Shown here: piece after piece, positions 25,606-61,214 of the stretch
Layout: each line of letters starts with the position of its first letter
Position numbering within the stretch: the stretch's first letter is position 1
Assembly (NCBI GenBank): GCA_002633005.1
Contig: NMRA01000120.1
Coordinates: forward strand, 62,966 to 126,965
Direction of reading: 5' to 3'
Length of the DNA stretch: 64,000 nt
Source of the DNA: Phoronis australis
Taxonomy: Eukaryota > Animalia > Phoronida
Notes under the pieces: generated by a model
What the model saw: the letters and a program-made list of their open reading frames with translations, nothing else
Database searches by the model: none
Told to the model about the DNA's origin: nothing
Program-made: the position numbers and the translations under genes

Positions 25606-25707
25606 TGTTGTGACATGGGACTTCCGGGAGCGACGTAGAACTGTAGAAAGCCTCTCATAATCGCTTATCAAGTGGCAATTGCCTCAGTGCCAGCAGATTT
25701 TTCTTCA
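25606..25707 (+). mobile_element. Solo LTR of the tRNA-containing TRIM family, tRNA part deleted
   Basis: Starts TGTTGTGAC and ends TTCA; shares aatcgctt.tcaagtggcaattgcctc with the LTRs at 40365-40830; flanks CTAA/CTAG form an imperfect 4-bp TSD. Confidence 0.7.
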
Positions 25708-25830
25708 CTAGCGGAATTCCCACCACTGATTATTAGCCATCTTAATGAAGGAAACGGAACTTTACCCAATTATTTTTGTAGTTAATAAGTATAAAATTCT
25801 TGCATGTTGTTCATGGTGTTTTTTCCCCAG

Positions 25831-27857: not shown

Positions 27858-28342
27858 GACTTGTCCCTCTACAGTACGTCGTTTTCAACGAAGGGAGACG
27901 ACCGAAAGTAGCATCGTTTTTAATCGCATATGGTGCACAGTTTAACACTGTGATAGACCGGCATGGATTGACACTGCTCAAAAGAGAGTTTATGCAAATG
28001 GATAAAAACAACAGCATTTTGAATGCAATAGTGAACAGCAGTTTGCAGCTGCCAAGTTTTGAAATAGTGTTAGGTACAGGAAACGTGTCACCAAATAACC
28101 CTCAGGTGTTACAGGAGCCTGTCTTCAGGGAAAGATCACATGTTCAGCAGAAGCAGCAATGGTATCAAAGTCTTTGCACGAATCCACGAACACTGCAGCA
28201 CATTTGTCGCTGCAAAATCAGAGAAACTCTTGGTCCAAAGAGACTGAGGAACATTGATGAGCTAACATTACCAAAATCCTTAAAGGATTATCTCCTTTTG
28301 AATCACAATTACCACTTTCTTGATTTTACCCTGACTAGTTGA
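27858..28342 (+). CDS. ASB-like protein, exon 5 with C-terminal SOCS box
   Basis: ttatag|(G)LVPLQYVVF...PRTLQHICRCKIRETLGPKRLRNIDELTLPKSLKDYLLL...*. Joined CDS is 1344 nt, 447 aa; AATAAA at 28433. Confidence 0.92.
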
Positions 28343-30891: not shown

Positions 30892-31013
30892 CTAACTCCT
30901 GAGAGCCTCGAGTCTGGCCTGCATGTCAGAGACATCATCCTCAGTTTCCTCTTCTTCACCTGCTGGGACAGGCAGGGAGTCCTCAACTGCGTCAGGGGCC
31001 TTACCGAGGTCAC
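30892..31013 (-). CDS. CHMP3: CHMP3/VPS24 exon 6 (last)
   Basis: ttccag|(G)DLGKAPDAVEDSLPVPAGEEEETEDDVSDMQARLEALRS*; the C-terminal MIM1 'M..RL..LRS' is typical of CHMP3. Confidence 0.95.
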
Positions 31014-33021
31014 CTGGAACAACGAGGTGATCGTTTATCAAAAGAACCAACAGATCATTCTTGCTTATTAAATGAATATTTCATGAAGCATTTTCATTCC
31101 TGAGTGGCACAGTTGCCCAGGTTGTAACCAAGGGAAACTTTTAACATCCAATAAAAAAGAACAAAAAGCAAATGACACATAAAATGCAATTTGACATTTG
31201 AACTAAGCAGTTGTTAAAATTAATCAGTTAACTTGGTCATTGCTAACTGATAAAATTAAGCGTACATTATCAACATGACTTGGTGTAGTGACTAAATGCA
31301 ATTTCTTCAGAGCCAATATACCACGCACGAGCTCATTATAAGTCTCTCACAAGTCAATCTCATTAATAATCTGTTCAGCTCTCGCACCACAATTGAATGT
31401 CTCATCAAAAACATGATGCATTATCAAATGCAAGAACCTGGATGACATGTGACCATACACAACATTAAAGTACATAGACCTAATAAGTAATTGGAAACAA
31501 ATATCAAAGATAGCCTTTCCGCTTCTTTCCAATCAAAAACTTCATAAAAGAAGGTTTGAATGCCCAATGACAAAAAAGAAAATTTCCAGGTGGTGTATCT
31601 TTCTACAAGCTTGTGTGTGATAGAAATACTTTTTGTGTTGTAAAATTTAAATGAAATAGATGCTTTTGCATGGATAAAGTCAAAATAATGATAAAAAAGA
31701 GGAAATCGAAACCAAATGAGGAAATCCTCTAAAAAGAAGAAAATTCCAAGCCCCTATAAAAGGAAATCGGCTGTGAATAAATCCACTTTAAATTTTTAAT
31801 CAAATGAGTCTTTTAACACATAATCAAATGCATTCAAAATAACCAGAATCAGAAGTGGAAATTTCAACATCATATTAGAATTTCTGGTGGTGCACCAACA
31901 AAATGGCTCTCATAGTTCGAGGGCCTTAAACTACCATTTTGAGAGTAAGAAATACATTTATAGAGGACTGTGTTCCTATTTCAATGATGTCTCAACTGGT
32001 GAAATACTTTCTGTGCTCTAAACTGGTGAAAATAAGAGAGAAAGAATGTCTTTAAAATGACATTAAGTAATAACATTGAGTATGAGAGCTCAGCACCAAC
32101 ACTGATTCTAACCCACAGCTTCATCAGTCACATCATATCACTTTTACTTGTAAAGCTAAAAGCCAACATGGCAATTAGGCAAGTAGTTTGAATGTATTTA
32201 ATCATCTCAAATGCATTTATTTTTTTTGGAATTACATTGATAGTGACCCTTTAATGCCAAAATGTAGATTTTAAAATCATACTACATGCTTGGGTTATTC
32301 CGCTAGGCATTGCTATTTCATTGTGTTTCGCACTTGATGGGAATTCGCTGAGTTTTTAACTACACTATTCAGTACCAATTGTATAATGTATGTCACATCT
32401 CTAGACTTTCATCACGAAATGGGTCTCAAATTGTTCCTCAGTCAAATTAGAGGTGATCTCAAGATTTCAAAAGAACTGACAGATCGTTATTGTTCAAGAC
32501 AAGGCTTTTCAAGGTGGTTCACCACAGCGCGTCATATCACCAACGAACATTGTTTCAAGAGAAAACAAACTTAGTTCCTTGCAAACCCAGATGTAACTTC
32601 TCATCTGAGTGAGGAGCAAATTGAGACCAATTTTAGGGTAAATGACCTAAATCATAACTTCGCTTTTTGAATGGAATGTGGGATAATAGCTGCCCTGTGG
32701 CTGTGTAGGAACGTAATGACAAGCCTGAATACTTAGCTAAATATCGACAATATTGCATATTTTAACTCAATAAAAATATATATTTTTTCAAATTAGAAAT
32801 CCTATAGAATTTGATAATTTTTAAGTTTTATCAATCTTTCAATAATTAGGTACACTGATAGCAAAACAATGGTATCAATAACATGGATTGATCAAAATTT
32901 ATTTGATATAAGATGTAATGTCACTTTAATTCAATGAGACTTTTGTTTTTTCATGAAAATCATTACATTTGAGAGCCAAAAGGGGAAACATTTTAAAAAC
33001 AATTTTGGAGATCATTAAATA

Positions 33022-33700
33022 CACAAAACGTACCAAAAGTGGCATAGATGAAATAACATACCACAAGACAATATTCTACGTATCGACCGAGACCGAACTA
33101 TGCCAATCGAGGTACGTTTTGCATTTATCACATACGCTCCGAATTCTTAATAAGTTTCTTCAATGTTTTTGGTAGATTTTTAAAATACTTCACCCAGACT
33201 GTTCACATCCTATATGTACGTACTTCCGCGCTATGTTAAAAGTTTTCTGTAGTAAAAGAAACAGCATTTAAATGCAACGATTTACTACTTGAGAAGAGAT
33301 AACGATGAAAACAACGGTAATAATGCACTAAACTTGTAACATTTTCTGAAAATAATAAAATAAAAACAATAACATTGCAGTTACTGAGGAATAGGTGCCT
33401 ACGTTGCAGATAATAGCAAATAAAACTGAGACAGAAGTGTCATATAATTAACAGTTTTGTACCAGATGTTATGTTTGGGGCCTGATTGCGCGTTGAGTGT
33501 TATTTTAACTGTTGCAACTTTAACTGTTTTGGGAAAGTTTGATGATCGAGCCGACAGTAACGACGTCAAGTCGACAATGACCTACCTTTTGAACTTTCTA
33601 CGTCAGAGGGCACTGTTAAAGTAGTCCCAAGAGTGCAGTACGGAAAACAATACCACATGGTCGTATTGCACTCAACTTATTCAACGCGTATGGGATAAAG
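33022..33700 (+). mobile_element. Dispersed ~680-bp non-autonomous element, family D copy 1 (hairpin partly deleted)
   Basis: Colinear with 44573-45287; subterminal inverted repeat tttatcacatacgc (33124) / gcgtatgggataaa (33687-33700). Confidence 0.8.
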
Positions 33701-33823
33701 CATAGTATATGAAAGTTTCACATGAACCCGATCAGTCATTTCTGAGATACGACGTTCCAAATTTAGCCAAATTTGGACATTTTTCTAGGGTCCTACATAA
33801 CCTCAAGTTTAGCCAGTGTTTAC

Positions 33824-33941
33824 CTGCGGTGAGTTCAAACAATATTTTGTCCACTTCTCGCTGCACATCTTCCTCCATGTCTTCAGTGTCCGGATCAATA
33901 CTCTCCATTGTGTCCTCCAGCATTTCCTCGATGATTCCAGC
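33824..33941 (-). CDS. CHMP3: CHMP3 exon 5
   Basis: tgtag|AGIIEEMLEDTMESIDPDTEDMEEDVQREVDKILFELTA|gtaaac; 118 nt. Confidence 0.96.
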
Positions 33942-35092
33942 CTACAACAAGAGAGAAGAAGCAATACAGTAAACATTCTCCAGTTTTGGTCGTGAAAATT
34001 TAATTACCGGGTATTCCGCTCAAGGTCAGAACTTGTTCCATTTTTTTTTAAATGGGCAGTACTGGTCATTCGAACTTCAAACAACAAATGAACATTCAAC
34101 TCAGTGTCACACACTATGTGGAAAACATTAGATCAACAACTATTTTTGATGTTTTTTGTGAAAAGCCAAGTCTCTTTTGAAACCTAATACAGTGTCCGAT
34201 ATTTTAAAAAATAAGCTGAATGTCATAATCGTCCATGTTCCAATCTTCAGAACAATGGAAATTTCACTTTTGGCTTGAAGATCAGTGTCCAAGATTTTAG
34301 AGGCTGTCCGCAACAACAGCGTCAGCAACAAAACAATAAGATAACACCAGCATAACTATACTGCAGTAATACCATATATGACCAGGTGTAAGCCCATCCC
34401 CGTCAGCATTCAAACCCAACTTTTCATTAAGTCTTGCACACAAACCCACCAGCTTGGGTATAAAGCCACTTTTCAAAATCAAATCAAACTGATCTCTTAT
34501 CTCCATTACATGGTACGCAAGTTAGAACAAAGCTATCTCGAAAAAACCCGATTCCATCAGCTTGAGTTAATCACAAGACTGCAACCCACAGTGCATGATT
34601 TAAATTCACTAGGACATGGAATTACCCACAAGTGTTTGAGGAGGCACAAATTTCGATATAACCCACCCATTGTTATAACTTCCCAATCAGAATCCCACAA
34701 GCTTACACACAGATGGATAAGCTAGCACAGTATAACTACACTAAAATAATAATAAAAGCACAATTCCATGATACAAGCACAAAATGCCAGAAGGGCTTGA
34801 CATTTACATTGTAAATCCAAAAAGATGTCTTGAATTACACCATGCAATATTGATAACTATAATTTTAAAGATACCTTCTACCGAGACAACTTGAAAAAGC
34901 CAGTAAAAAACACAGTGTACAACTCTGTGAAGGGCCTTCAAGCTATGGCGTTCAACAGACACAGTAACATTTTTAGCAGCTCAACTAGATCTAATGTTAC
35001 AGGAACTCTGTCCAGTTGTTCAACATATTTGCAGCATATCTGCATGCATTGTAAAGTAAAAGAAAATTTAATTCTTCACCACGAAGACAAAC

Positions 35093-35214
35093 CTTGGTCA
35101 TTTCTTTGGACATTTCCATCATTGTAGCTTGGATCTCTGGGACTTTGATCAATGACTGCATGGACTTCATCACATCCGAACTCTTCTCAAGGGCACCAGC
35201 TAATCGCACCGTGG
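35093..35214 (-). CDS. CHMP3: CHMP3 exon 4
   Basis: ctcag|(A)TVRLAGALEKSSDVMKSMQSLIKVPEIQATMMEMSKEMTK|gtttgt; 122 nt. Confidence 0.96.
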
Positions 35215-35751
35215 CTGAGGGCAATAAATCAGACATCAGTTGACAGCAACTATATTCTAAATTTCTAAGATACTGAAAACAGTCACCAAGCATTAACTAT
35301 TACCGTTTTCACGCATATTAAGGACAAAGTGTTTTTATTCGAAATATTATGTTTTTAAAAAAAATATTTTTATGTATTCGTCATGATGTTCTCCCATTAA
35401 CTCCAACTTGTTCAATCAGATAGCATACGGACAAGTTGGCTGGTTGACTGGTGTACCCCGTATCTTACGCGACTGATTAACTCCATTGTACTATTCATGG
35501 CTGGAGGGCCATCTCTCTTTTGTTTATTAATTGCTCTAATCCTGATAAGATATATCTAGCATGACTGGGCTATGCTGTTCAAAATAAAAGATAAATTATC
35601 AACTGTTTCAACATAAACCAATAGCATTTCTGAATTCCTCGTCAAATGCTGATCATGTTTAGTTTTTGAATAACCAAAATTGCCCAACTACAGCCGACAT
35701 TAAGAGAATCCATTCCATCCAAATGCATTACAGTCTCTGTAACACTATAGT

Positions 35752-36110
35752 GGCGTTCTTACACAGACTCACCCTAGAGCAAGTTACTCTTAGAACGAGT
35801 TGTCGCTAGGTTTGGTGGCTGTGTGGATGCTATTTAAACCAGCGCAACTTAACTTGTTCTAGGGTAACTTGTGCCACTTGTAATCGCTGTGTGGCCACAA
35901 AAGTGGAGTAGGGCGGAAGTAATTATCAACTGCGGTTATATACAGACAGGTTTTCTTTTGCGCGTGTCGTACTCGCATTAGGTGTTCATTGTCACACACT
36001 GAGCGACACTTCCACCCTACACTAGTAATCGGATATGTGTGTGTGGACGCTCCACTTAAAAGTGAGGTAAGTCGCACAAGTTGTTCTAGGGTAGGCTGTG
36101 TGTGGACGGA
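35752..36110. mobile_element. MITE family B copy 2
   Basis: acacagactcaccctagagcaagtt ... aagttgttctagggtaggctgtgtg; reverse-complement homolog of 13673-14080. Confidence 0.75.
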
Positions 36111-36915
36111 ACTTTTGAAGCCTGCCTGTTGTCAAACCAGAGAAAAGAATGAACTCAGCAGTTAACAAAGGAGTCAATGTTATCAAACATTCACAACAGG
36201 CATAAGACTGGTAAAGTCATTGAATGAGAGAATGCCCTAATGCATACGGTCACATGTGCCTATGACCCATCTATGGCACAGGGCTAATAGCTGATATTAT
36301 GTGACCACTCATACTTCTCTCCTCTCATGGCATGATAACATTCAATATCGACCGATTTCCCGTGGAATATTCACTTTTCAGTCATGTTGTCTGGATGTCA
36401 GACGTTACTATTTGCAATCTGTCCAATCAGACATTGTAGAAACTATATACCATAAACCTTGAGCCGAAAGCAAGCGCATGATATCAGTACATTGAGGTAG
36501 GTAAGAACAAGCTTTATCTAATAAGAGGCAAAATTTTCACACAAAAGAAGCATCTTTTTCAGTGGTCGTGTTATAAAACAAATATCGACCAACCCCTCAG
36601 GCATATCAGATCATATGAACCTCTGGTTTCGTGCAATATTGCTCTCTCTGTCCATATGACCTGATATTACCCTCCGGGCCAAACCATATTCGTATAATGT
36701 TATCTTACATAGCAACTGCAGCACTCTACAGCCAGCATGAAAACAAATTTCCAGTAAGCTTGTTTGAATAGACTGACGTCATTCCAAAAATAAAAATAAA
36801 TGCAGCAGTAAAGAAAAAGCTGCAGCAGAATAATAAATCAATATTAAAAAATGATACAGCGAATTCAGAGTGCCTCAGTCAGTATGGTTGTTTGACCACT
36901 TGATTACAGACATAC

Positions 36916-37095
36916 CCAGCTGGTTTTTCATGGTCATTTCCACCGAGCTCAGCTGTGCCTTCGAAGCATACAAACGACTGACAGCCTTGCGGGACTGTAC
37001 AACTTCCCTGGCCAACAGTGCACACACATCTTTCTCTCCTTTCTTGGCAGCTTGCTTGATTGACCTCATCACCTTGGCCTCTTCATTTTGTATAG
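36916..37095 (-). CDS. CHMP3: CHMP3 exon 3
   Basis: tttag|(T)IQNEEAKVMRSIKQAAKKGEKDVCALLAREVVQSRKAVSRLYASKAQLSSVEMTMKNQL|gtatgt; 180 nt. Confidence 0.96.
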
Positions 37096-37439
37096 CTAAA
37101 ATATTCAACACAGACTATAAATTTGAGATATAAAGAAAACGGAAAGCAGACATGAAATGTAACAAAGTTGTAAGGTGCGGTAAAACTTCACCAGTTTACG
37201 ACAAAATATGGTGGACAACTGAAATTTCTTGTCCTCATTTTCTCACGAAAAATATATAGTGCCCCAAATGGATGTTTTCCCATGTATCACAGCTACACCA
37301 GACTATGTTGATGGTGTAGGCAACAACTTTAGAAACATTTGAAAAATGAACAAGAGCAACACAAAGCATTAAAATGTGTCCACAGCTGCACCGCAAACAG
37401 TATGCTTCTTGTCTTGAGGTGTTCATTAGTATCATATAT

Positions 37440-37760
37440 CATTTGAAGGCACAGAATACATTGAATAAATCCAAAAATGGGACGGTGTCGTCATTTCTCA
37501 AAGCTATTTGCCAAATTTCATGAAAGTCTGTCTAAAAACTCCAAAGATACAAAGACAAACGTAAAAAAATTGTCATAAGGAACCACAGCAGTAGTCGAAT
37601 CCATTAAGTTAACAGGAATACAACTGCAAAGTTTCAAAAAACATCTAGCAAGGGGTTTAGGAGATACAGCCGCAGATGCAAAAAAATGTCAATAGGGGGA
37701 ACCACAGTACTGGGACCCGTTTGGACGGACGGACAGGGATGACGGCACACTATGTGGGTG
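37440..37760 (-). mobile_element. Degenerate HINE-like (Helentron-associated) element
   Basis: ccaaatttcatgaa and gcaaagtttca core motifs followed by a short (GGAC)n tract at ~37722-37735. Confidence 0.45.
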
Positions 37761-37884
37761 CTGGATTTTCAATAAAAGCATAGAAGCCAGAAAATCATAG
37801 ACATTGATAGTAATAAACCCAGTATCCAATACTGGCTGGATCTGTGACACACTTGTGACCTTGGGGTGACCTTCATTACTGTTA

Positions 37885-38134
37885 TGGTAAAAAAATCTTC
37901 AATTTGAGACAGTCTATAGAATTTGGGACATAGAAACTCCTGGAAAAGTGAATTTCTTGATTCTGGAATTCAGGACAAGGGCGATTGTGGCATTCATCGT
38001 TTTTCTCAAATTCCTTTCAGGCGACTCTTGAATTTGGGACCACCAATATCGTCTGTTTCTGGAATTTGAGACAAGCTTTGACCTTGAGCAAAATAATTGA
38101 TTTTTCACTGTCCCACACTGGAAATTTTTTACCG
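37885..38134 (-). mobile_element. MITE-like repeat, inverted copy of 4295-4573
   Basis: Repeated aatttgggaca motifs; termini tggtaaaaaa / ttttttaccg. Confidence 0.65.
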
Positions 38135-38301
38135 TAACCTGGTACGTGGTTTTGACCTCATAAATAAACACAGGGTAAGAGACTGACAAATAAATATCAG
38201 TCTCTAACAGTGGCCGTATATGCAGCAAGAAATCAACAAACATCAATTCGAAGGTTTAATGTTTGTAACAATTACTAGCAAAATGACGCAAAAGATCATA
38301 C

Positions 38302-38362
38302 TTCTGACTTGACGTTCTAATTTTCGTCCTTCTTTTCTTAACTGCGATGACCATTCTCTGAC
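38302..38362 (-). CDS. CHMP3: CHMP3 exon 2
   Basis: tgtag|VREWSSQLRKEGRKLERQVR|gtatga; 61 nt. Not in the ORF track. Confidence 0.93.
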
Positions 38363-39544
38363 CTACAAAACAAGCAACAGCTCAACTTCCTGTCCAGTAA
38401 GACGCATGACATCTAGTCCTAATCAACACATCCTGAAATACCATACAGTAACTCTTTGAATCTGTGTTTACAAGCTATGCAATGCATTCACTGCAATCGC
38501 TTACAGCTACCACGCTAATCAGCTTCTTGTATCAAATTTACTTATTAATTATAAGATTAATGCCAGTAACATTTAAAAAGCAATTATGACAGCAAGACAA
38601 TCGACAAGCTGGGTGGAGCTCAATATATCGTCCTAAATATGTCAAACATCTCCACGACTAGATTTGCATATCTGCGGCGACCCAAGTTGCCACGCACACA
38701 TTCCAGCACATGCTCAAAGTACTAGGTACAGGAAGTAAACAGTTAGGTAGGGAATAGTCCAGTGGGCTTCATTCGTGACTCATGCACAGACAGCGTGTCC
38801 TGATCATCTCCTTTACTCTTAGGTAGGCCACAATATGATAGACAAGTGAACGTCTTTTTACATTTTTTACAAAAGATATGTAGTCTGTACCAAATAAATA
38901 TTTTATCATGATCTTAAAGTTCTATGCAACAGCTACAATCAGACATTTTGAGAAACGGTGAGAAAAAATAAAAATGTGAGAAGTCTTTGCAAAATCAAGA
39001 AAGTTTAATTTTGACGATGTTTTTTTTCCGAAATTGGTAATATTTTACCGCATGCATCGTTTGTGGAGGCCAGTGCCCGGTTGCATGAAACGATCCCTAA
39101 GTATGGACTCAACTAACTTCCGTAAATCTACTGCACATTTATAGACTAGTGAAAACACTGATTGCCCTTTCTTATGCTGTCTTGGTTTTATTACTAACAC
39201 TATTTTTGGCTTTGATACAAAACAAGAGTGAATTTTACATTGAATTTTCAATATTACTGAAAATAAGTAGGTGTCTTTTCAAGCAACATCCCTAATTTAA
39301 GGACCAAGACCCTAATTACTTTCATTGTTCAAACTAAGAAATTCTTACAAAATGTTGATAGTCAAAGAGGATGTCATGCTAAAGATAAAGTGAAAGAAAA
39401 AGATAACATCTGTGAGTGAAGCTCGACACAAATATGCGAGAAAAAAATTTTAGGGAACTTAGTCGCTATTTGGGACTGTTTCCATACAACCAGTCACAGG
39501 GCCCCCGTATAATAAAGTAATTGAATACACAAATGATAGACCTT

Positions 39545-39696
39545 TGAAGCAATTACTGTCGTAACTTTAACCCAGGCTGCCAGAGCCCAAGTCACGCATC
39601 CACACCATTCAGCCAAGAGGAAATTACCCATTGGAAATCAATTTTGAGAGGCTTTATACGACTGTATGTCGTACCTAGAACTGGAAATTCACAACA
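39545..39696 (-). mobile_element. Degenerate solo LTR, tRNA-containing TRIM family
   Basis: The minus strand starts TGTTGTGA at 39696, contains cctcttggctgaatggtgtggatgc (A-box-like) and ends TTCA at 39545. Confidence 0.6.
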
Positions 39697-39869
39697 TACT
39701 GTCCTAAGAGAGGTCACTGTTTACACTGCCGCCCCTAAGCGTTACTACCAGATAGGTCCCCCTAAGCAGACTGAACTAATGACTGCTCATCATGGATTTA
39801 CTTAAACGAGGAATCATCGTTGACATTGTCCAACTGGGCCTTGAACGTCTCTGGCATCAAAGTCTGGTA

Positions 39870-40117
39870 TCACAGCCTGCGGGTCTCTTTGAATCCCTTC
39901 CCAAGTGGGAACTGCCTCTTTACAGAATGGTTTGGAGGCTTGGCTCTCACGTGGGAATCCCCAGTTCAAGTCTCAGTTTTGACAGAATTTCCAACAATGA
40001 CACCCACTGATGGTGGAACCCACAACCAGATGGGATTCAGCACTCTCTCTCGGGGCAGTCCACTTTCACGCAGGAAACCCTGGTTCAAGTCTTGAAGTAT
40101 CAGCAGATTTTTCAACA
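39870..40117 (+). mobile_element. Internally deleted copy of the tRNA-containing TRIM (opposite orientation)
   Basis: An LTR part ending ccaaca at 39996, a decayed PBS tgacaccca, an internal segment homologous to the reverse complement of 40620-40680, then the 3' half of a second LTR (ctttcac...ggttcaagtc...ttcaaca). Confidence 0.65.
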
Positions 40118-40364
40118 CAGGCAGTCTATCACAGGGTAACAAGCAATCAAGGAGGGCATCACGAAGCAGCGAGATTGAAAACCTTGCTCGAATTCCATCA
40201 GATTTTGTTGACAATCAGACAATGAAGTGTAGAGTGGCTCCAGCCCTATTATTACATAGTATATTACAGATATGTACTTGCTAAAAGATCGAGCTGGACT
40301 GCAGTGAGCAGGTAGACAGTGACCACCGTCTCTAGGTGGCTCAGTAGAGACAGTGAAGCTCCAA

Positions 40365-40830
40365 TGAAGAAAGTTTCAGCGATTCCAGGACTTGAATCCG
40401 GGTTGCACATGTGAGAGCCGAGCATCTAAAAAATTCAGCCAAGAGGCAATTGCTGCTTGGCAAGTAATTTAGAGAGACTTTATCTGGCTGTACGTCCCAT
40501 CCGGAAGTCACACGTCACAACACTCCTATCCCTTCAACGTGTTAAGCGTTCCCCCTGCCCCCTCAGATCAGCCACATCTCTGGTCTGGGTTTCCACTGCT
40601 GTTGCTGGAGCATGAGTCCTGACTGCCCCGAGGCAAGAGGAGTGCTTTCATCCAGTCTGGTCGTGGGTTCTACTGTTGTTGGGCACCAATGAACAAAATT
40701 TCTCAAACATTGGGACTCGAGCCGGGTTGCACATGTGAGAACCAAGCAAGCATCCAAACTGCTCAGCCAAGAGGCAATTGCCACTTGACAAGCGATTTAG
40801 AGAGGGTTTATCTGGCTGTACGTCACAACA
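40365..40830 (-). mobile_element. Two-LTR TRIM-like mini-retrotransposon with a tRNA-like sequence in each LTR (Helenus-like)
   Basis: 5' LTR 40830-40690 and 3' LTR 40522-40365, both TGTTGTGAC...TTCA; PBS TGGTGCCCAAC at 40688-40678; PPT GAAGGGATAGGAG at 40535-40523; A-box, ctctcac loop and B-box inside the LTRs. Confidence 0.8.
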
Positions 40831-41165
40831 ATGGCGTGCGTTCAGTAACGCTAGGACCCAGCTAAAATCTAACCAATGCACGTGTTCTCATTTAAAATAC
40901 ACGGCAATATCTCACGTAATTTCGCGAAGTCTTGCTTTTTAGCAGACTAATAGCAATTGCTAATAGCAAGGCCCTAGTCCTAGCCCTAGGCCTAGTCAAA
41001 TGACAGTGTTACTGAACGGGAGGCAGTCCAAAACCTCAAGAGAAAAATTATGTACTCAGAAGGTAAACGAGTCCCGAAGTTTCATTGTAACATCAAGAAT
41101 ATTACTTACAAAATATGTCGTTACCTTTAATGTTTAACTTTAGAGACATAATCCTTAACAAATAC

Positions 41166-41210
41166 CTGTTCTTTGGGATCCTTTTGCTGAGTTTTGCCAA
41201 ACAAACCCAT
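41166..41210 (-). CDS. CHMP3: CHMP3 exon 1
   Basis: aaaATG; MGLFGKTQQKDPKEQ|gtattt; 45 nt; classic CHMP3 N-terminus. Joined CDS is 648 nt, 215 aa. Confidence 0.95.
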
Positions 41211-44200
41211 TTTCCGGGTTATTCGTACATGCGCAGTTCTCTTCCGTGTTACTGACACTGGTCAAAGATACTTTGCACTGGTGGTAGACTTCGGAACTAA
41301 CGTTGTTTTGTTTTTGATGAATTTTGCCGGGGGTGTACTTGTATTGATTCTAAACAAAACATGTGTTCATGATGCCAAACACAGTCAAAATGATCACACA
41401 AAGTTTTGCATGCATACTTTTTTCCTAAATCATTTTAATTCATCATTTTATTGACTTTGGTTTCACACTAGCAAAAATTTCATGTATGGACCTCATACGC
41501 GGGTTGTCACGGTCATGGGTGACTTGCCAACCCATAGTTATCGCAGCAAGCTGGCGAAAACTTTTGAGTGAAAATGTTCTGAAAACCCGAAAGTTCATCA
41601 AAGTCAATGAACTTCGTCCTTTTTGATGTTCTTTGATATCTTATTCTTGCATGTGATCTTGGCCACCACAGTATAATCGCCTGTTGACAGTGGCGGTTTC
41701 CCCGGGCCAAGGCTACAATATTTTGATCACTGACGTAACCAATAATTTCCATATCCAAGACAAAAATGAAGGTGGGGATAATTGAATTTTTGGCAATATA
41801 TTTATATCGAATTATTAGTCAGAGATAACTATTTCCATTCAGACTGTTTAGAATACTTTATTTTGTGAATCAAAAATTAAATCGATAAGAAGTTGTCATC
41901 GCAGGTCAAATAATAGCTATGATGCAAGTGTAATTCTTACTGCGTAAAAATAACAAGCTAGCAACCTACAGCTGCAGCTTCGGCTACTGTACGCCCGGTG
42001 CACTAGGCCTAGTGTACAGAAACGCCCCCAGCCCGGCCATTGCGAAGGGCACCCAGTAAACAACATTTTTCAGAAAGCTAGTTATTTATAGTTGGGAAGC
42101 CAGATATTGCAGTTTTGCAATTTGATGTCCTTAATTAAAACAAGGACTGTGTTTAATTCGTTGCTCAAGCACCAGTACCCATCCAAACATCTATAACGGT
42201 TATAAGTGTGTAGGCCGAGACCTACTGCATATGTAGCCTAGTGTGAGACCTGATTTTTGTATAACCTATGACCCCTCACAGCCAAATTTTGCTTTTTGCC
42301 AACCTCCCCCCCAAAAAAAACTACATTGACAAGCCGTCGGACCGACACAGTAGCTCTTCACTTTTCAGTGCATCGGAGAAATACAGCTCTGATAGTTCGA
42401 TGAGAAAAAAGGTTCTGAACCCTTCCGTCTTTTTCAGAAATATATGGCAAGGTCGGTGGACATGACTAGTTTTCGACAAAATAACTACAGAAGACTTTAG
42501 TTGTTTTACTCATAACAAACTGGCTGTGAGATGCTTCTTAAAATAAGTTTTCAACTGTGCATTCTGTTTGCGCTGCAGCATGACCAATAGCGTTCAATTT
42601 TTTCGAACTAAATGAGCGTTTGTGAAAAATAATTTCTCGATGACAACGTACACCAAAGCACCGTAGGAAGCGGGGGAATGTGAGAGTGAATTTCTTCGAC
42701 ACCCCTTGCAGTTTTAGATCCAGTAACCGTAGCAAATCTACTGGTGAGATCTCTTGACCGTGACTGACTGAAATCGAAAGCCAATTGTTTATACTTTTAC
42801 TCTGTCAATCACAACGCCCGCACACAAACACATTTTCCGCTAACGAATGTTATCGATTTTATGTAATACGTTAAATCGCAGGAAGCGGGGGTGCCTCCCA
42901 CTTGAGTAATTTGCATGAGGCATCATGGTCACACAGCGACGACCGGCATAGACGTAGGACCGGCTCTGTCGAAAATCTGCGAAACACAAATGATGTGTCG
43001 TTTAGTCGAAGTTGTTTTCCACTTGATATATATTGAGAAACTGCAGGAGAGGGACCCTGATGATTGCATCAATTGCAGCCCATGTTTTTAGTTTTAGCAC
43101 AGGGAGGCTCCAACGACTGATTAAGTCAATTGACACCCTTTACCTGTTTTTTTGAAAACGTATACGTACGTACATTCTTTTTATGTAAGGTAAGTCAGGC
43201 ACCCCTTGGAGAGTCACCCGATGGATTTGACTGTCCTTCTTGTCCAGTTTTTAGATTTGGAAACTTTCACATTTAGGAGATCCCTTTCAGACAGGATCCT
43301 ATCTTGGAAGAACGGCTCGATCAATTGCCCTTAATTCATGTGGTCCCCCTGGAAACCCGGGACTATCAACAACTCACAATGTTGATAAAATTTCAAAATG
43401 CTCAAGTATACCACAGACCACATTCATGTAAAGGGCAGTATGCAGCAAGTCACACGCGGCTCAAACAACCAAAAAGTGAGAGTGCACACAATAGCAATGA
43501 CCTTCATGCAAGGATTGGTGTTGGAAGAATTTAAAAACGTTTATTCGCCATAGTGATAAATATACAGAATTCCCATCACAGTGTTTCTTTGGAAGATCGT
43601 TATTAGAAAAGCATGAGCTTGTCTCCTGCACAGACCCTATGGCCCCCAATCCCACCAACCCGTCGGATGCCCCTTATAGTAAATTCGTCCACGCTCTTCC
43701 AGTTCAGTCCCCGTCAAAAATGAAGTATCTGCACACATCATGCCTTAGACCAGAATCGCCTAAAATAACAGATTTGAAACAATTTCGCCAACTAATTATA
43801 AACCTTCAGTTAACTCGAAAGGCCTGCATTGTGTTTCCATGTCAATGACGGCCCAATATTTGCCAATGTTCAATATTTTATTTTGTCTGGTAACCTAGTT
43901 GCAATACAAGGGATCATTCGTTTTGATTTACGTGTTTATGAATGTATTTGCGAAAATCAACTGATTCATACATTATTTTTTACCAATTAAAAGTAAACTT
44001 TAGTTGATGATGATCCTTCATCGAACTCAAATGTAGGCTGAAATTTGAGAAAATCTCTATCATCCGATCCCTGTCCCCCAAACATGAGCAAATTGCACTA
44101 AATTTGCCAATCTGTTCAGTGGCGTTTCGGTGGGTGAATTTTGACTTAGGTTGGGGAATTCGTTTAGTTCAGCCTATGTGAGGCGCCCCCCTCGAGAAAT

Positions 44201-44572
44201 TCGGGTTTCCGTGTTTCAACAAGAGGGTGAAAATGCCGAAGGCCACAAGTAGGGAGGAGTGATGGAGTAGTGGTGACGCCTGGAAGACTTGGGTCCACAC
44301 GGGTTGCGGCAAATGGACGGGTTTGTGCTCTTACTATTTACCTTCCCACGAGCCTGATATGTAGTTCCTGAAAGAGATAGACTGTCTGTATTATTTTTTA
44401 TGTCACGAAACATGTTACTTAGAGTCTCGCGTCGCCCCTCACGCGGGAGACAGCCGCTGGAAACCACTAGAGCAGTTGCCCGGCCAGCTCGGACCCATTT
44501 ACTTCCAGGTAATCAAGTAGCGGACATGTTCCTGCGCGAGAAAGACAACACTGATTCGTGAAAAAGTAATTG

Positions 44573-45287
44573 CACAAAACGTACCGAGAGTGGCGTACAT
44601 GAAGTAATATCCCACGAAACCCATTATTTAGCGTGTCGACCGAGACCGAAGGTCATGGTCGATACAATAATGTCGGATATTACTTCATGTACGCCAATCG
44701 AGGTACGTTTTGTATTTATCCCATACGCTTCGAATTTCTAAGTTTCTTTCGTTTTTTCCGCAGAACAAATGCTTCACTCAGACTGTTCACGTGGTGGATC
44801 ACATCCTACTTGCGCGTTGGGCTACAAGTTTTCTCTAGTGAAAGAAACAGTTTTAAATGTGACGATTTATTACTTGAAAAGAGATAACAAAGTTGAAACA
44901 AGATTAACTTTTCATTGAACTTGTAACATCTCCTGAAACTAGTTAAATAACAGCAATATTTGATATTGTAGTTACCGAGGAATCGGCGCCGAGTCTGCAG
45001 ACGAAAAATATTTAGCAAATGAAAACTGAGACAGAACTGACATATAATTAACAGTCCTGTTCCAGATGTTACGACTGAGACCTGATTGTATGTTGAGCGT
45101 TACTTACATTGCTATAATTGTATTACTTTAAACTATTTTCCGAAAGTTTGGTGATCGAACGTCGGGTAGACATTGACCTACCTTTTGAAATGTCCATGTC
45201 AGAGGTCACTGTTGAACTAGTGCGGGAGGTAAATACGGAAAACTTTATTACATGGCCGTATTTCCCTCGACTGATTCAACGCGTATG
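44573..45287 (+). mobile_element. Family D copy 2, with an intact 140-bp terminal hairpin
   Basis: Colinear with 33022-33700; 39-bp inverted arms at 44574-44612 and 44675-44713. Confidence 0.8.
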
Positions 45288-47973
45288 CACCCCCCGGGTT
45301 GAGAAGCCTGACGATCAACGATCCTGGCGGACAAAACTGTTTACATGTGCAGTGCATTATTGTGTAAATGTCATTTGCTAAGTGAGCGGATGCATGTACT
45401 GAGCCTCTGAAAGATTTCATCATAATTTAAACAAAGCCAGACAAATGGATGGTACAAAAAAAGGACCGGATGTAAAGGATGGTAAGAAAAACCAAGTACT
45501 TTTCTTGAGACACTGTCCGAGCATAGTCTTTTAGGAAATTCATTCATGATTATTATGGTAGCCTAATCATGTTTTTGATTGACACCACTTCGGTAGGCGA
45601 CACGTGTTGTGCCGATAGACACGGTATAACCTGTCTAAATTATTGTAGGGTCGACAAGTGGACGGCGACCTGGTTTTCTACACGGACGATGTTCGTGGTC
45701 TTGGTGCTATTCTGTGAAATCCATCACTAAAATAAGGAAACATAAATAGATTTCAAACATCTAAGTTAAGTCCGGCATTATTCACTGACTGTATGTCGAG
45801 TGTTTAAAAATGAAATTCCAGTCTGGCAGTAGGCCTACCGCCTGTAGGCAACACATAGCCCCTCGGTTGGCCCGAGGGCGATGTAATTGCCTATAGCCCA
45901 CCGCCTGTGGCTGCTGTAGCATATGCAGTTGGGCTAACCCAACTGGGCAATAGTTGGATGCATGGATCCCTGCTTTGAGAACCAGTTACACCCGCTGAAT
46001 AATGCCCGTTATTCAACAGTGGTAGTAACTGGTTAAGACTTAAGTCAATTTTATATCAGGAACCCATCCATCAGACTATTACCAGCAATTTCATATGTAG
46101 GGGATCGTCTTGGAATGGAGCTGCTGAACTGATTTACTGCTTGATGGATCAAATTTGAAAGTATACAGCAATAATCATGGATAATAAGTTGGATGATTGC
46201 CAAGACTATAACTAGGCTCTATTACTTGGATATATTTCATTTTGTATCTTGTTTTGCTTTGAATTTTTTTTTAACTTCTTTTTTTGTTTGTTCTACGGCT
46301 TTGCACGTGACGTGTCATACTTTTCATCTCATCTACATGAAATTCATTCAGAACATGTATGTACCTCCTGAAAATCCAGAGGCCTGTTGCTCTTTCTGAT
46401 TTCTCGTGCCAAATCTCTAGGTCGTTTGAGGGATCCTGCTGAAATTTGGTATGTGGAATTTTTTCAAATGCTGTCTGCCCTGTTGTTATGTTATGCTATA
46501 TGTTTACATTAGAGCAGTGACAACGCCACCTGGCGACTAAAACATATGTTCTACGAACGATCTCGGGTATTACATACACAACACTTGTTCTATCAGTTTT
46601 TCATTCTGTCGTACTGTTCTTTAGTTATTCAGGATTTACTGATCTGACGACTCTTCTTTTTTTACTGACCAATTCCTTGCTGTTCTTTATGTTACCATTC
46701 ACATTTTTTGTTTGATCCTCATGAAATTGGAACACAACATGTGTCTCATTGAAGGCCTGTTGTTTTAGGGTAAAATCAACTCAACGATGGCATTGTGATG
46801 ACTATTTTTCGAAATTTTCTAAACGCGGAGCTCTAGCTTCGTGATCCTTTAACGTATTTTGTTGAAATTTGGTATGGAGATAGATCTTGTCAAGGGCTAT
46901 CTGAAGTATCATCCATTTTTCGCTACGACTTATCTTTATCCAGTTATTTGACATTGTTTTGTTTGACTTATCTTTCATAATGCCATATATTGAAAAAGGC
47001 CATTTGTACAGTTTTGTGTGACCCCGCTATGCCCTCTACAACTTTGGAATGGCGTAAAATAGACCGAGAATTGATTCTCAAAACTGATTCTTTTACTTCT
47101 AGCTGCGAGAGTTCCCTCCCTAGTGGCACTTGAAGGGGTCGCTGTACATAAGTTGGCTCTCATGAGTATCGCTTTAGTCATTTGCGCAATGGGCCTGCGT
47201 ATTTTGATGCAATGCATAAGGCATCACAGCACCTGTGCTCTTTCCTTTCTAGCTGTGTAACAGTTGAACTCTCTAGCCTGATAATGTTATGAGGAACTGA
47301 ACCTCTAGTTAGGAAGATTCTGAAAAGCTTCAAAACTTTCCAAAGGAATGATGCAATTGATGCTAGCTGATCAGAACTTAAGAATATGCTGTATGATATT
47401 TTATTTTTATTTATGTCAGTCTGAACTGAAGTTAGTATGGTCAACTTCATAGTTTCAACTCTTGCGTGAATGAACGTATTAGCAGTAGGGGACCCATGTA
47501 GACTAAAAATTTCCAGGAGACAAAGAATAGATTCCTGCGACATGGTAACATTTTTTGACAAAACTCGCTTGCCTGAAAACCTGTGACATTTTGTGGCATT
47601 TTGAAAAATTTTGTGACAAAGTTTGAGAAATTTGCTGAGCCAAGTAGGTTTTCAGTGTTTTGTTGGGCTCACAGTTATTTTATGCTGCATCAAGTGGTGG
47701 TTCCTTTTTTCACAAATTGTAAAATTACGGAATTCATTGTGTCTCACATGTGACAAATGGGAAATTTATCTGATTTACATGATTGTGTAAAAAGCAATTG
47801 AGACTTCCCTGTGACATTTTGAAAATTTGTGATGTGACACATTGTGACTTGCCATTAAACATGGATCCATTCTCTGGTTTGAGTTAAGTTGCTTCTCATT
47901 TTTGATAATTTGCAGCAGAACATGTGTAGTTTATGACTTGTATTCTGAAGTGTTGTTACAATTCTGCTTTCAG

Positions 47974-48203
47974 TTCCATTCTGGACGTCGGCAAGGTTTG
48001 GGTTGGCCATTATCGGCTTCTTCGGCTTCGTTAATCTATATGCGCTCCGCATCAATCTGAGTGTAGCGATGGTCTGCATGGTCAACCATACATGGATAGC
48101 TGAACAAGCAGTTAATGAGACTGTTGCAGACATGGTCAATAAGACGGCAACCGAAGATGTAATCGCTTGCCAGACTACTTCAAGTAACGCTTCCACAGTT
48201 AAG
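47974..48203 (+). CDS. SLC17-family (sialin/VGLUT-like) MFS transporter, internal exon (TM1 + luminal loop)
   Basis: tttcag|..PFWTSARFGLAIIGFFGFVNLYALRINLSVAMVCMVNHT...NASTVK|gtatgt; 'R.NLSVA.V.MVN' SLC17 signature; N-glycosylation sequons NHT, NET, NKT, NAS; phase 1 to 0. Confidence 0.93.
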
Positions 48204-49555
48204 GTATGTCTGGAACGGTCTTCCTTGAGTACCCTAAGATTTAGACTGCGTCTTGTGAAGCCAAAGAAGCATAGTTGGTTCTGGTCCATATCCCGACTTA
48301 TTTTGAGACCTGCGCTCACTAACTGTGAAAAAAGTAGAAATGCGACCGCTGGCATCAATAATAACCTATTAGTAATTTTGGTTTTTTCGGCAAGCTGCTC
48401 AAAGGCACGTAATCAAGGGCTAGCAAGGTTTGAAAGCCCACGATTGGTCAAACGATGCCTAATTACCTGTAAAAGAAGCTCTGGGTGGTGCTAGAAAAGA
48501 GTGTGGTTTAGCCACTCAAATGGTGCTGCACCATTAAAAAGTGACAGCCATTATGGTGGCGGAAAATACCACAGTGCTTGCTACGACTTTTACAACTTGC
48601 AGATTTCATTTGTGCTTCTGTCTATTGTGTATTATAAATTACTTTATTCTGTTTTGCTCTGATTCTCATCATGCTTTGTCTCCTCTGGTCATTGTTGTCT
48701 CCATCCACTGATCAGTGGGGTGCCATCTGAAATTGTTTGTTCGCACGCTACAGGTCGCAATTTTTGTCCGATTTGCAGAAAATTCACACGCAACCTATAG
48801 CTCCGGATGAGCTGGTAATCTAATGTTTTTTTTCATCGGATTCAAGATGGAGGATGTGGTGGCCATTTTGTTTTCAAATTCAAATTCAAATGCTCATAAA
48901 GGCTGCAATTTTTGACGTACACGGCTGAAAACCGGTACGATTATTGTACCAGACGTATACTGCTACAGGTGGTCAAAGATGGTGGAAATATTGGTTATTA
49001 TGTTTGGGCACCTCGATTTCGAGATAAAAACATTTTGTCCTGTAGACAGCGCATTGTTGGACCAATTGCTTTGAAATTTTTCATGTGGTAGTTTCATGTA
49101 GCTGGCTATTATCGACTGTTGCTTAACCGGAAGTCATTTTCAAAATGGCAGATCTGGCACATTTTCATCATTTTTGCCGGGGTGCCATTTTGAACAAGAA
49201 GAGGAAATAATGTGAATTTTTGCGTGTGGATTTGCTAAGGTTTATTCTTTCAAATGAACGATGACAATTTTTTTCTCAGACGTAACGTTTTTGAGTTATT
49301 TGACTTTCAGTTTTAAAAAAATGCAAAATTTTGTGGAATTTTGTGAAACTATTCTGTTAGATAGAGTTTTGAACGGGCTTTCAGTAGATGTTTTCTGTTT
49401 TTCGTCAGACCGTCTCGTTTGGAGTTATTCGAGATTTTCTGATAACGCTGTTCCTTTGTTGACTGATTTTGTTGCACTTTTGTTGGTTTACGTTCTGTTG
49501 AACAAGACTCTACTTCTTACTCATTTCTGACGTCTTCATTCGTCGTATGATTTTT

Positions 49556-49612
49556 ATCATCATCATCATCATCGCCTCCATCATCATCATCATTATCATC
49601 GTTGTCGTCATC
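49556..49612 (+). repeat. Imperfect (CAT)n microsatellite
   Basis: atcatcatcatcatc... seen directly. Confidence 0.9.
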
Positions 49613-51440
49613 TTCTGCATTGTCATGTGTTTAGTCAATTTTGCCAAGTGTCACACCTCCAAGCGCTTTCATCTTGTTTGGTGTCGCCAAGGGATGAAAA
49701 GATAACTTTTGAAGCAATGGCGCGGGTGCCCTTCCTCCCACCCAAAACTGGTTAGCGTTTAGTAAAACGAACAAAAAACAAAACCTACATTATTTTTAAT
49801 CTGCTCTGGTTGATTTTCTTTCTGAAAAAGTGAGCAACTAATTACTTTCCACCAACGTTTTTAAAAAATGATAACTTTTCACCAACGTTTTTAGAAAAAA
49901 ATGCAGACCAGAATCCGCTCTTGCTGAAAATCCGTGTTGTGGTAGTGGGAGTGCACTTGATGCTTCACATTAATTGCAAGGAAGTGACCCTCAAGGTCAT
50001 GTTGGGTTTTTCCTTGGATGTATTTAGGACCAGTTCTGGTTAAACATTAAACAGAATATGTCAATTGATTTTCAATAGTCTCTTGGAACCTTTTTTGTGA
50101 TGTCACAGATGCGTTAATCGAAGCAGCTCTTTCATCGTCCTGATGAGCTAATAGTACACCAATTCTTCACTTATTTTGCATAAAAACAATTGTCATTTTT
50201 CCTTTTTTCTAATGCAGTGTACTTTGCTACATATAACGGTAACCTTGCTAATTGTTGTTTTATGACTAAACTGAGTCGTAGACTAAATATTCTCAATCTT
50301 TATTTTTGTGGAGAAATTTGATGAAATAAATTTTCACTTGTCGGCCACATGGTGTGCTAAATAAGTGTAGAATTACTGAACACACCTGAGTATGTTGTGT
50401 TTTACCGTGTGTTCTGTGAATGTCTGTCTTACTCTTGGTGTCCGTAAACAGGGACATCGCGTTCTCTTAGTTGTTCTCTGGACTATTGTCGGCAAATTTT
50501 GCAGCTGTTGTATCTGGAAATAGCACAACCTTTGATTTGGAAAACAGAATGATAAGGATATTTTTGAAACTGGTAACTGACCCACTTCAATATAAATGGA
50601 TTTCAAGAGTATTATCAGACGAACATCGCAGCTTATCCCGGACTGTTGTGCTAAAGTCTTGTCAATATCAGACAGAATAATTGCCAAAATTTAATTTTTC
50701 AAAAGCTTCTTTAGTGTTGCTGTGAATGACCACAAGTTCTCAGGACACTGGTAGCTATAGCAACACACTTAAAACTGAAAGTTTTTATTTTGTGCTACTT
50801 ATCGTTGATGAGAAAAATCACGACTGGCTGCCTCATTGGGCCCTGTATTTTTTCGGCTTTTTATTGTAACTGAGTTGCTCTCAAATTTATTGGCTGGTAT
50901 TACTGAAGGTGTCTTAGGCAGATGTTCTCAGAAGAGATGTACTAATGGCACATTGACCTTGCCATGTGTAACCCTTATGTCAAGGTGCATTGCCCCTTAT
51001 ATGTACTATTTGGTGTGGGTGGTAAAAGTCGGGTATGATCAGTACAATTAGTACTTACACACTTGGACCTTGAGAGACATCTACACCAATAACTTGTGTG
51101 CGGGCATGAGAGTGATAGGGGACTAAGTACCCTATTCTCATCAAAGCGATTATAACTTATAAAACTGATTTCAATGTAACTCTTAGTTTCAACAATCTAA
51201 AGTCAGATTTAAAATGATAAGTGATGTGTGGTTACAGCCTTCTGTGAGGTTATCACTAACATAAGTCTGTGTGAACACTGGAGGCGCTGCTGTCAAATGT
51301 CCTTGAAAACAATGATGTACTGAGGCACTATGTGACATGAATTGAAAAGTGATAGCACTGACAACTAGGGACTAAAACCGTAGACCAGGGTTACAAGTTT
51401 TTACTATGAAAAGTAACAATTACATAACACTTACAACTAT

Positions 51441-51844
51441 AGGCCCTTTCATAATGACTTAACTCTGGTCTAAGCGGAGCTTCGACGTAAACTGTGAAGT
51501 TAACTGAACCGTTCATACTGGCTTCGGTAGTTAACGGACATCGAAGTAAATGTTGTCATCGAAGTAATCGCAAGGTAGCACTCATGCATCATGTGCACGC
51601 TAAGATTTGTTTATGTGACAATTAGGGAACATTTACATGTGCTAATTTACATGAAACTTATTTTTAATTTGATTGTTGATTATTCGAGCTAAATATAAGC
51701 AACTATTAGTGACGACACTGCCCTTTAATTGTTGACAGTAATAGTGGCCTCTGGCGATAACTTCGATGTGACCGAAGTTGACCGTTCGTACTGCACTGCA
51801 ACTCCCCATAACATCCACGCGATGACATTAGTATGAAAGGGCCA
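51441..51844. mobile_element. Harbinger-like MITE, family A copy 2, nested in an older repeat
   Basis: TIR GGCCCTTTCATA / TATGAAAGGGCC; 3-bp TSD TAT; colinear with 7804-8319 apart from an internal deletion. Confidence 0.85.
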
Positions 51845-61189: not shown

Positions 61190-61214
61190 GTATTTAATTG
61201 CTACTTCAGTTGAT

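What the first reader, a model, noticed from the sequence alone, without database searches (positions are those of the whole stretch)
40365..40830. 466-bp non-coding LTR retroelement (TRIM) with a tRNA-like Pol III cassette inside each LTR
Seen on the minus strand: two diverged direct repeats (141 and 158 bp), both starting TGTTGTGAC and ending TTCA. One nt after the first is TGGTGCCCAAC, the tRNA-Lys PBS (TGGCGCCCAAC) with a CpG decay. Directly before the second is a purine tract, GAAGGGATAGGAG. Each LTR holds an A-box-like TGGCTGAG/AAnnnTTGG/AG, a (c/t)tctcac loop like the tRNA-Glu(CTC) anticodon loop, and a B-box GG(C/AT)TC(G/A)AGTCC. The 167-bp internal region has no coding capacity. Knowledge: Cassandra TRIMs carry 5S RNA in their LTRs, and, as I recall, the recently described Helenus TRIMs carry tRNA-like LTRs. 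Inference: this is a Helenus-like family that captured a tRNA promoter, possibly unreported in this lineage. Caveat: no TSD is seen for this copy (ccat / ttgg), and ttggagc after the 3' LTR might be a further decayed PBS from a tandem array.
Basis: partly seen in the sequence, partly recalled or inferred. Interest (0 to 1): 0.8.

Follow-up and report, generated by a model that had tools for sequence, protein, structure and literature searches.

The report
Helenus mini-retrotransposon with split primer site
This is an old, decayed copy of a small gene-less jumping element of the Helenus type described in 2024, with tRNA-like promoter boxes in both end repeats; behind its primer site lies a second block complementary to another arm of the same lysine tRNA, so the primer likely binds at two places, a feature that many published Helenus families share but that I did not find described for them.

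Summary
40365-40830 (minus strand) reads LTR (141 nt), tRNA-Lys PBS, 167-nt non-coding internal part, purine tract, LTR (158 nt); the LTRs are 84% alike. It lies in CHMP3 intron 1. The family is multi-copy: three more loci in the window and 303 contigs in one DNA run, whose copies mostly carry canonical Pol III box letters and support the LTR 5' end. It fits Helenus (Kojima 2024) but matches none of the published families. The scan has noted Helenus-type elements in at least 23 other genomes. Corrections: the letters after the 3' LTR belong to another repeat, not to a PBS; the tRNA donor (Glu or Asp) is unsettled; this copy has no TSD. New here: 7 nt behind the 11-nt PBS is a 12-nt exact complement of tRNA-Lys(CTT) nt 45-56, the only such match in 64 kb. 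Its 6-nt core follows the PBS in 28 of 47 published animal Lys-primed Helenus families (hand count). This suggests a Ty1-like split primer site. Pol III transcription and two-site priming are untested; host lineage is unresolved.

The parts
40690..40830 (-). 5' LTR, 141 nt, TG...CA; lost 20 nt near its 5' end between two GACGT repeats
   Evidence: 18 contigs of other copies run on with the long form at 40827
40770..40787 (-). 18-nt motif just 5' of box A, resembling the motif at the same place in published bivalve, nemertean and coelacanth Helenus LTRs
   Evidence: 13 of 18 matches to the scallop motif; 7.8e-5 of window positions score as high (motif picked by eye)
40759..40769 (-). box A of the 5' LTR (1 mismatch to the recalled consensus)
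40713..40723 (-). box B of the 5' LTR (1 mismatch)
40678..40688 (-). PBS part 1: 11 nt complementary to tRNA-Lys(CTT) nt 66-76, one position as G-U wobble
40659..40670 (-). PBS part 2 (predicted): 12-nt exact complement of tRNA-Lys(CTT) nt 45-56 (variable loop, 5' strand of the T stem, TTC), 7 nt behind part 1
   Evidence: 11 of 12 kept in the neighbouring unit
40523..40689 (-). internal region, 167 nt, non-coding, no special fold (z 0.47); holds an internal duplicate (40604-40579) of the post-PBS segment
   Evidence: (D6)
40523..40535 (-). polypurine tract, 12 of 13 purines; 4 contigs of other copies carry a purine at the one pyrimidine (40528)
40365..40522 (-). 3' LTR, 158 nt, TG...CA
   Evidence: other-locus contigs stop at 40522 or start at 40364 (table 8, table 5)
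40431..40441 (-). box A of the 3' LTR, decayed at two positions where most other copies are canonical
   Evidence: 45 and 41 contigs, 92% and 83% of summed depth
40388..40398 (-). box B of the 3' LTR, decayed at one position where most other copies are canonical
   Evidence: 20 contigs, 70% of summed depth
39865..40117 (+). older sister unit: LTR, decayed PBS, T-arm block, first 70 nt of the internal region, then the 3' half of a second LTR
39534..39696 (-). solo LTR of the family, box A perfect, box B decayed; no TSD at the aligned end
25606..25707 (+). solo LTR with the tRNA-like part deleted; flanks match at 3 of 4 bases (possible 4-bp TSD)

Best explanation
This is a decayed copy of a multi-copy, gene-less LTR retroelement (TRIM) of the Helenus type, likely transcribed from the tRNA-derived boxes in its 5' LTR by RNA polymerase III and likely copied in trans by a Gypsy element, with tRNA-Lys(CTT) as a primer predicted to pair at two places. 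Shown: LTRs, PBS, purine tract, boxes A and B, many sister copies, solo LTRs, and a 12-nt block complementary to tRNA-Lys nt 45-56 lying 7 nt behind the 11-nt PBS. Inferred: Pol III would start just before box A in the 5' LTR, read through the short T run near that LTR's end and stop in the 3' LTR, so the tRNA-like part would serve as the R region. The tRNA's acceptor end would pair with PBS part 1, and the second block would open the T arm, leaving tRNA nt 57-65 unpaired opposite an A-rich spacer, as in the bipartite PBS of Ty1. A Gypsy partner would supply RT, RNase H and integrase (4-bp TSD in animal Helenus). This copy is old (LTRs 84% alike), has damaged boxes and is probably dead.
For: Layout and repeats. 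Family: 303 contigs of run X1 laid on 497 bases, 6 of them 99% alike or more, 261 under 95%; further window copies at 39534-39696, 39865-40117 and 25606-25707. Ends: three window copies besides the 5' LTR share the TGTTGTGA start; a contig of another locus stops at 40522 and another starts at 40364, one joins internal part and LTR at the unit's own spacing (40629 to 40364). Boxes: best A+B pair of the window; most other copies are canonical where this one has decayed. Split PBS: 122 of 130 pattern matches in 128 metagenome loci have the tRNA's own 10-nt gap and ARAGORN tRNA-Lys(CTT) genes there; the block is the only 11-mer complementary to the commonest such gene in 128,000 positions; it is kept at 11 of 12 in the neighbour unit. 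Hand count in the Helenus supplement: 28 of 47 animal Lys-primed families have ACCCAC within 12 nt of the PBS (13 of 26 bivalve, 15 of 17 wasp), 8 are one letter off, 11 lack it. Ty1 precedent: two PBS segments separated by a small loop (PMC5371799, passages). Helenus definition, Gypsy link and 4-bp TSD: PMC10886601.
Against: No TSD on this copy; only one solo LTR has a 3-of-4 flank match (about 6% by chance), the other has none at its aligned end. No tRNA call by ARAGORN or Rfam and no cloverleaf fold (z from -0.28 to 1.04). RNA runs X5-X7 (one study, about a fifth of each read): 132, 152 and 39 reads laid, none 99% alike, 90-98% running on into unlike sequence, no pile-up of starts or ends, so no discrete element transcript is seen. 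The LTR 3' end is thinly covered by other copies (bins 40349-40382). No autonomous partner was found. The host's own tRNA-Lys was not available; the pattern that fetched the tRNA genes contained the block, so that search shows what the block matches, not that every tRNA-Lys carries it. 11 of 47 published Lys families lack the block.
Confidence: 0.75

Rival explanations
1. An ordinary Pol II TRIM in which a tRNA-derived SINE head rides in the LTR as a passenger; the boxes no longer drive transcription.
For: No transcript starting at the tRNA-like unit is seen; one solo LTR has lost the whole tRNA-like part; Kojima also says Pol III use is unvalidated for Helenus.
Against: Boxes A and B are canonical in most copies while the stems between them have drifted, the pattern expected from selection on a promoter; the solo LTR's deletion can be later decay.
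Confidence: 0.12
2. The family is a Helenus TRIM, but this 466-bp unit is not one insertion: it is a chimera from recombination between two copies, or the remnant of a tandem array.
For: LTRs only 84% alike with several indels; no TSD; the repeat cut at 40362 does not continue on the far side; the internal region holds a duplicate of the post-PBS segment. Tandem arrays occur in zebrafish Helenus and Cassandra.
Against: Other window copies are less alike (56-71%) than the two LTRs are to each other (79% in the same alignment); age alone explains the decay; what follows the 3' LTR is another repeat, not a PBS.
Confidence: 0.1
3. Two tRNA-derived SINE copies or tRNA pseudogenes lie by chance in tandem around unrelated DNA.
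For: A and B boxes are SINE hallmarks; no TSD.
Against: Copies extend about 80 nt 5' of box A to a shared TG start; no simple-repeat tail in any window copy; PBS, second tRNA-Lys block and purine tract sit exactly at the inner LTR edges; the internal part recurs next to LTRs at other loci.
Confidence: 0.03

Closest known systems
Helenus (TRIMp3), Kojima 2024, PMC10886601; nearest in layout the Lys-primed bivalve families such as Helenus-1_MyGa and Helenus-1_MyCo. I read the whole main text and supplement parts 1 and 5-11 of 11.
   Same: Size (466 nt; published range 311-1263), LTR length, TG...CA ends, tRNA-type boxes in each LTR without a working cloverleaf, 11-nt tRNA-Lys PBS, PPT, solo LTRs, ACCCAC core behind the PBS, a similar 18-nt motif before box A.
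   Different: No published family matches it: two family-specific 9-mers give 0 hits and the LTR start only two fungal hits in the supplement (line breaks could hide a hit). The T-arm block is longer here (12 nt) than in the published families (6-9 nt). TSD not shown. Host not identified.
Yeast Ty1 / Ty3 bipartite PBS (PMC5371799, passages read)
   Same: Short acceptor-stem pairing plus a second pairing to the T arm; in Ty1 the two segments are separated by a small loop.
   Different: Ty1 and Ty3 are autonomous and use tRNA-iMet; the Ty3 segments lie about 4800 nt apart; pairing is shown there and only predicted here.
HIV-1 primer activation signal (PMC13191261, passages read)
   Same: A second genome motif proposed to pair with the T arm of a lysine tRNA primer.
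   Different: It lies upstream of a full 18-nt PBS and uses tRNA-Lys3; here the block lies downstream of an 11-nt PBS.
Cassandra and Ajax TRIMs (PMC7215508 passages; PMC10886601)
   Same: TRIM with a Pol III small-RNA promoter in each LTR.
   Different: They carry 5S rRNA boxes (A and C), not tRNA boxes A and B.

Membership tests
Helenus (TRIMp3) | Short non-coding element with two LTRs (TG...CA) | tested here: met
   466 nt, LTRs 141 and 158 nt, longest ATG frame 47 codons
Helenus (TRIMp3) | tRNA-derived sequence with boxes A and B in each LTR | tested here: met
   Best A+B pair of the window; canonical in most other copies. No ARAGORN or Rfam call, so the tRNA origin rests on boxes and spacing.
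Helenus (TRIMp3) | PBS complementary to a tRNA 3' end just behind the 5' LTR | tested here: met
   10 of 11 plus one wobble to tRNA-Lys(CTT)
Helenus (TRIMp3) | PPT before the 3' LTR | tested here: met
   12 of 13 purines
Helenus (TRIMp3) | Interspersed multi-copy family, with solo LTRs | tested here: met
   Three more loci in the window; 303 contigs in run X1
Helenus (TRIMp3) | 4-bp TSD (animal families) | tested here: inconclusive
   None on this copy; 3 of 4 on one solo LTR; none on the other; no genome held
Helenus (TRIMp3) | Pol III transcription from the LTR | not testable with these tools
   RNA reads come from other copies and run into unlike sequence; no start or end peaks. Also unvalidated for published Helenus.
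Helenus (TRIMp3) | Mobilisation by a Gypsy partner with the same PBS | not testable with these tools
   No other Lys PBS in the window; no genome
tRNA-derived SINE | Copies start at the tRNA 5' end and end in a simple-repeat or A tail | tested here: not met
   Shared TG start about 80 nt before box A, CA ends, no tail in window copies
Functional tRNA gene | Cloverleaf with paired acceptor stem | tested here: not met
Cassandra / Ajax | 5S rRNA-derived sequence in the LTR | tested here: not met
   No 5S hit at E up to 10 in 39000-42000
Retrozyme-like TRIM | Self-cleaving ribozyme in the LTR or internal part | tested here: not met
   No Rfam ribozyme hit at E up to 10; internal part folds no better than shuffles; a decayed one could be missed

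The most novel reading that the evidence does not exclude
Animal Lys-primed Helenus elements use an undescribed Ty1-like split primer site (acceptor end plus T-arm invasion), shared by bivalve, wasp and this host's families; together with the motif before box A this marks one ancient, cross-phylum lineage tied to one Gypsy helper clade, rather than separate SINE captures in each host group.
Probability: 0.35. Interest if true: 0.6.

Novelty: new member of a known kind. Interest (0 to 1): 0.4.

Why it matters
As a Helenus copy it is a new family record and little more. The split primer site is the part that matters: the helper elements of animal Helenus are unknown, and a two-block tRNA-Lys signature gives a sharp handle to find them and to test whether Helenus arose once or many times. 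It would also extend bipartite priming, studied mainly in yeast Ty1 and Ty3, to animal non-autonomous elements, and it can be tested with short RNAs in vitro.

Tried and rejected
No whole genome is held, so no genome-wide copy list, TSD survey or partner search. ARAGORN on the window: 0 genes. Rfam on 39000-42000: 2 chance-level snoRNA hits, no tRNA, 5S or ribozyme. Exact family-core patterns: 0 hits in metagenome contigs and 0 in viral contigs. The 25-nt published LTR motif has no match with at most 3 mismatches in the window; only the anchored comparison shows a resemblance, and the motif was chosen by eye from about 110 animal families. A lone box-B match is no better than chance (7 seen, 6.2 expected). 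A by-eye likeness of the internal 3' end to scallop His-primed families was dropped, because 2 of 3 sister contigs differ there. A second end for the 39.6-kb solo LTR (39522) that gave a 3-of-4 flank match was dropped, because the alignment ends at 39534. The 8 metagenome matches with gaps other than 10 nt look like chance or a damaged tRNA, not TRIMs. No RNA holder was listed for the stretch. Host lineage: best named hits are a hemichordate for ASB7-like (41%), a brachiopod and molluscs for SLC17 (59-65%) and molluscs for CHMP3 (78-85% on 42 aa); not decisive. PMC2311327 (Cassandra 2008) is not held. Literature searches: Helenus + TRIM + tRNA, TRIMp3 (45), Helenus + LTR retrotransposon (46), five-term TRIM search (61), primer activation signal (68), bipartite primer binding site + retrotransposon (74: three papers, all Ty1/Ty3), bipartite PBS / Gypsy / TRIM (75: none of the 20 listed holds the phrase). 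None showed a split PBS for Helenus; Repbase entries and subscription journals were not searchable.

Full report
What is there. On the minus strand, 40830-40365 reads: LTR (141 nt), one base, an 11-nt PBS-like motif, a 167-nt internal region ending in a purine tract, LTR (158 nt). Both LTRs start TGTTGTGAC and end TTCA. They agree at 113 of 135 aligned columns (K2P 0.19); the 5' LTR has lost 20 nt between two short repeats near its start. There is no TSD. The longest ATG-started frame is 47 codons. The element lies in intron 1 of a CHMP3 gene, in the gene's orientation (exon 1 coding part 41210-41166, exon 2 from 38362). The window is from an animal; its lineage is not fixed, because the best named protein hits split between a hemichordate, a brachiopod and molluscs and none is near-identical.

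Is it a family? Yes. The window holds a solo LTR at 39696-39534, an older unit at 39865-40117 (LTR, decayed PBS, part of the internal region, half an LTR) and a solo LTR at 25606-25707 that lacks the tRNA-like part. In DNA run X1, 303 contigs lie on the 497-base stretch; 6 are at least 99% alike and 261 under 95%. Runs X1-X4 are one sample, so they are not independent. Depth is no copy number, but 68 contigs share one difference at 40788, so dozens of loci at least. Eighteen contigs run on at 40827 with the long LTR start; contigs of other loci stop at 40522 or start at 40364; some span LTR, purine tract and internal part, and one joins internal part and LTR at the unit's spacing. The LTR 3' end is thinly covered and the tables show only the best-supported rows. 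Nothing resembles a SINE that starts at a tRNA head and ends in a tail.

The flanks. The letters after the 3' LTR are not a PBS. They belong to a separate high-copy repeat at 40314-40362, whose other copies (60 contigs in X1) go on differently. Its continuation is absent on the far side, where a very high-copy element with inverted ends begins at about 40836. The original flank was probably lost, so the missing TSD tests little. The solo LTR at 25606 has flanks that match at 3 of 4 bases, weak support for a 4-bp TSD.

The tRNA-like unit. With recalled box consensus motifs, the 5' LTR is the best box A + box B pair in the window (2 mismatches; none in 30 simulated windows), and 3 of the 5 pairs with at most 3 mismatches are family LTRs. 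Where the 3' LTR has decayed (two box A positions, one box B position), most other copies are canonical (45, 41 and 20 contigs). ARAGORN and Rfam call no tRNA and the units fold no better than shuffles, as expected for a promoter relic. The CTC loop sits in anticodon register (tRNA numbering recalled), but 19 of 26 reads of X5, 16 of 27 of X6 and 5 DNA contigs read GTC there, so the donor may be Glu or Asp.

The split primer site. PBS part 1 pairs with tRNA-Lys(CTT) nt 66-76 with one wobble and then breaks off. Against the commonest gene (36 identical copies) the internal region has a 12-nt exact complement of nt 45-56 at 40670-40659, 7 nt behind part 1. It is the only 11-mer complementary to that gene on either strand of the 64 kb. 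The spacer does not match tRNA nt 57-65. The neighbour unit keeps 11 of the 12 bases. In the published Helenus set I counted by hand all animal Lys-primed internal regions (supplement parts 5-9): 28 of 47 have the core ACCCAC within 12 nt of the PBS (13 of 26 bivalve, 15 of 17 wasp, 0 of 2 coelacanth, 0 of 2 nemertean), 8 are one letter off and 11 lack it; chance is about 0.002 per family, though related families are not independent. The paper's main text, which I read whole, does not mention it; its figures are images that I could not see. The nearest precedents are the bipartite PBS of Ty1 (PMC5371799, passages) and the HIV-1 primer activation signal (PMC13191261, passages). A rival reading is that the block is a relic of tRNA once copied into the element; a free, A-rich spacer between two kept blocks in two phyla argues for selection, but this is inference.

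How it likely works. Inferred steps: Pol III starts just before box A of the 5' LTR, reads through the short T run near the LTR's end (TTTT in the 5' LTR) and ends in the 3' LTR; tRNA-Lys binds at two places; a Gypsy element supplies RT and integrase, as Kojima infers for animal Helenus. Because the spacer is not corrected towards the tRNA, the PBS is probably not rebuilt from an 18-nt copy of the primer, as reported for Ty1 and Ty3. RNA runs X5-X7 give no support for a discrete transcript: 323 reads, none 99% alike, nearly all running into unlike sequence, no start or end peaks; library selection is not on record and the samples differ from the DNA sample.

Comparison. It meets five of the testable Helenus features; the TSD is inconclusive, and Pol III use and the helper are untestable here. 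It matches no published family. An 18-nt motif before box A scores 11-13 of 18 against a scallop Helenus motif in all five window LTRs that retain it (13 or more at 7.8e-5 of positions); similar motifs stand in bivalve, nemertean and coelacanth LTRs (by eye). The motif was picked after looking, so this is a lead. Two further papers mention Helenus only in passing (PMC12859917, PMC13570524; passages). The scan's own notes list 145 Helenus-like findings in at least 23 genomes, none on this sequence and none under split-PBS words.

Verdict. A real, old Helenus-type TRIM: new member of a known kind. The predicted split tRNA-Lys primer site, apparently common to many animal Helenus families, lifts the interest to 0.4.

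Noticed in passing
window 40314-40362: Separate high-copy repeat with a palindromic end; the TRIM abuts it and its continuation is missing on the other side.
   Followed up: partly
window ~40836-41022: Very high-copy MITE-like element with inverted ends directly 5' of the TRIM; summed contig depth about 10,000 times single-copy level.
   Followed up: partly
window 30895-41210 (minus): CHMP3 (Vps24) gene; intron 1 holds the TRIM, an older sister unit and a solo LTR within 1.3 kb, a local cluster of one family.
   Followed up: partly
window 20298-28300 (plus): Ankyrin-repeat and SOCS-box (ASB7-like) gene; only hit was a Ptychodera flava protein; the solo LTR at 25606-25707 lies in one of its introns.
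   Followed up: partly
window 47955-62700 (plus): First exons of an SLC17 (sialin-like) transporter gene.
   Followed up: partly
window 40579-40604 and 40656-40681: The post-PBS segment is duplicated inside the internal region; contigs and RNA reads join an LTR part to the second copy (40452 to 40578), hinting at shorter subfamilies.
   Followed up: no
window 33016-33692 and 44567-45287; 7804-8318 and 51441-51843: Two pairs of diverged dispersed repeats of 400-700 bp (73-80% alike); 44574-44713 is palindromic.
   Followed up: no
window 26392-26642: Tandem repeat, 83-bp period built from 25-29-bp subunits.
   Followed up: no
PMC10886601 supplement, parts 5-7: Eight bivalve families filed under tRNA-Lys(CTT) have a different, longer PBS and lack the T-arm core; they may use another priming mode or lysine isoacceptor.
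   Followed up: no
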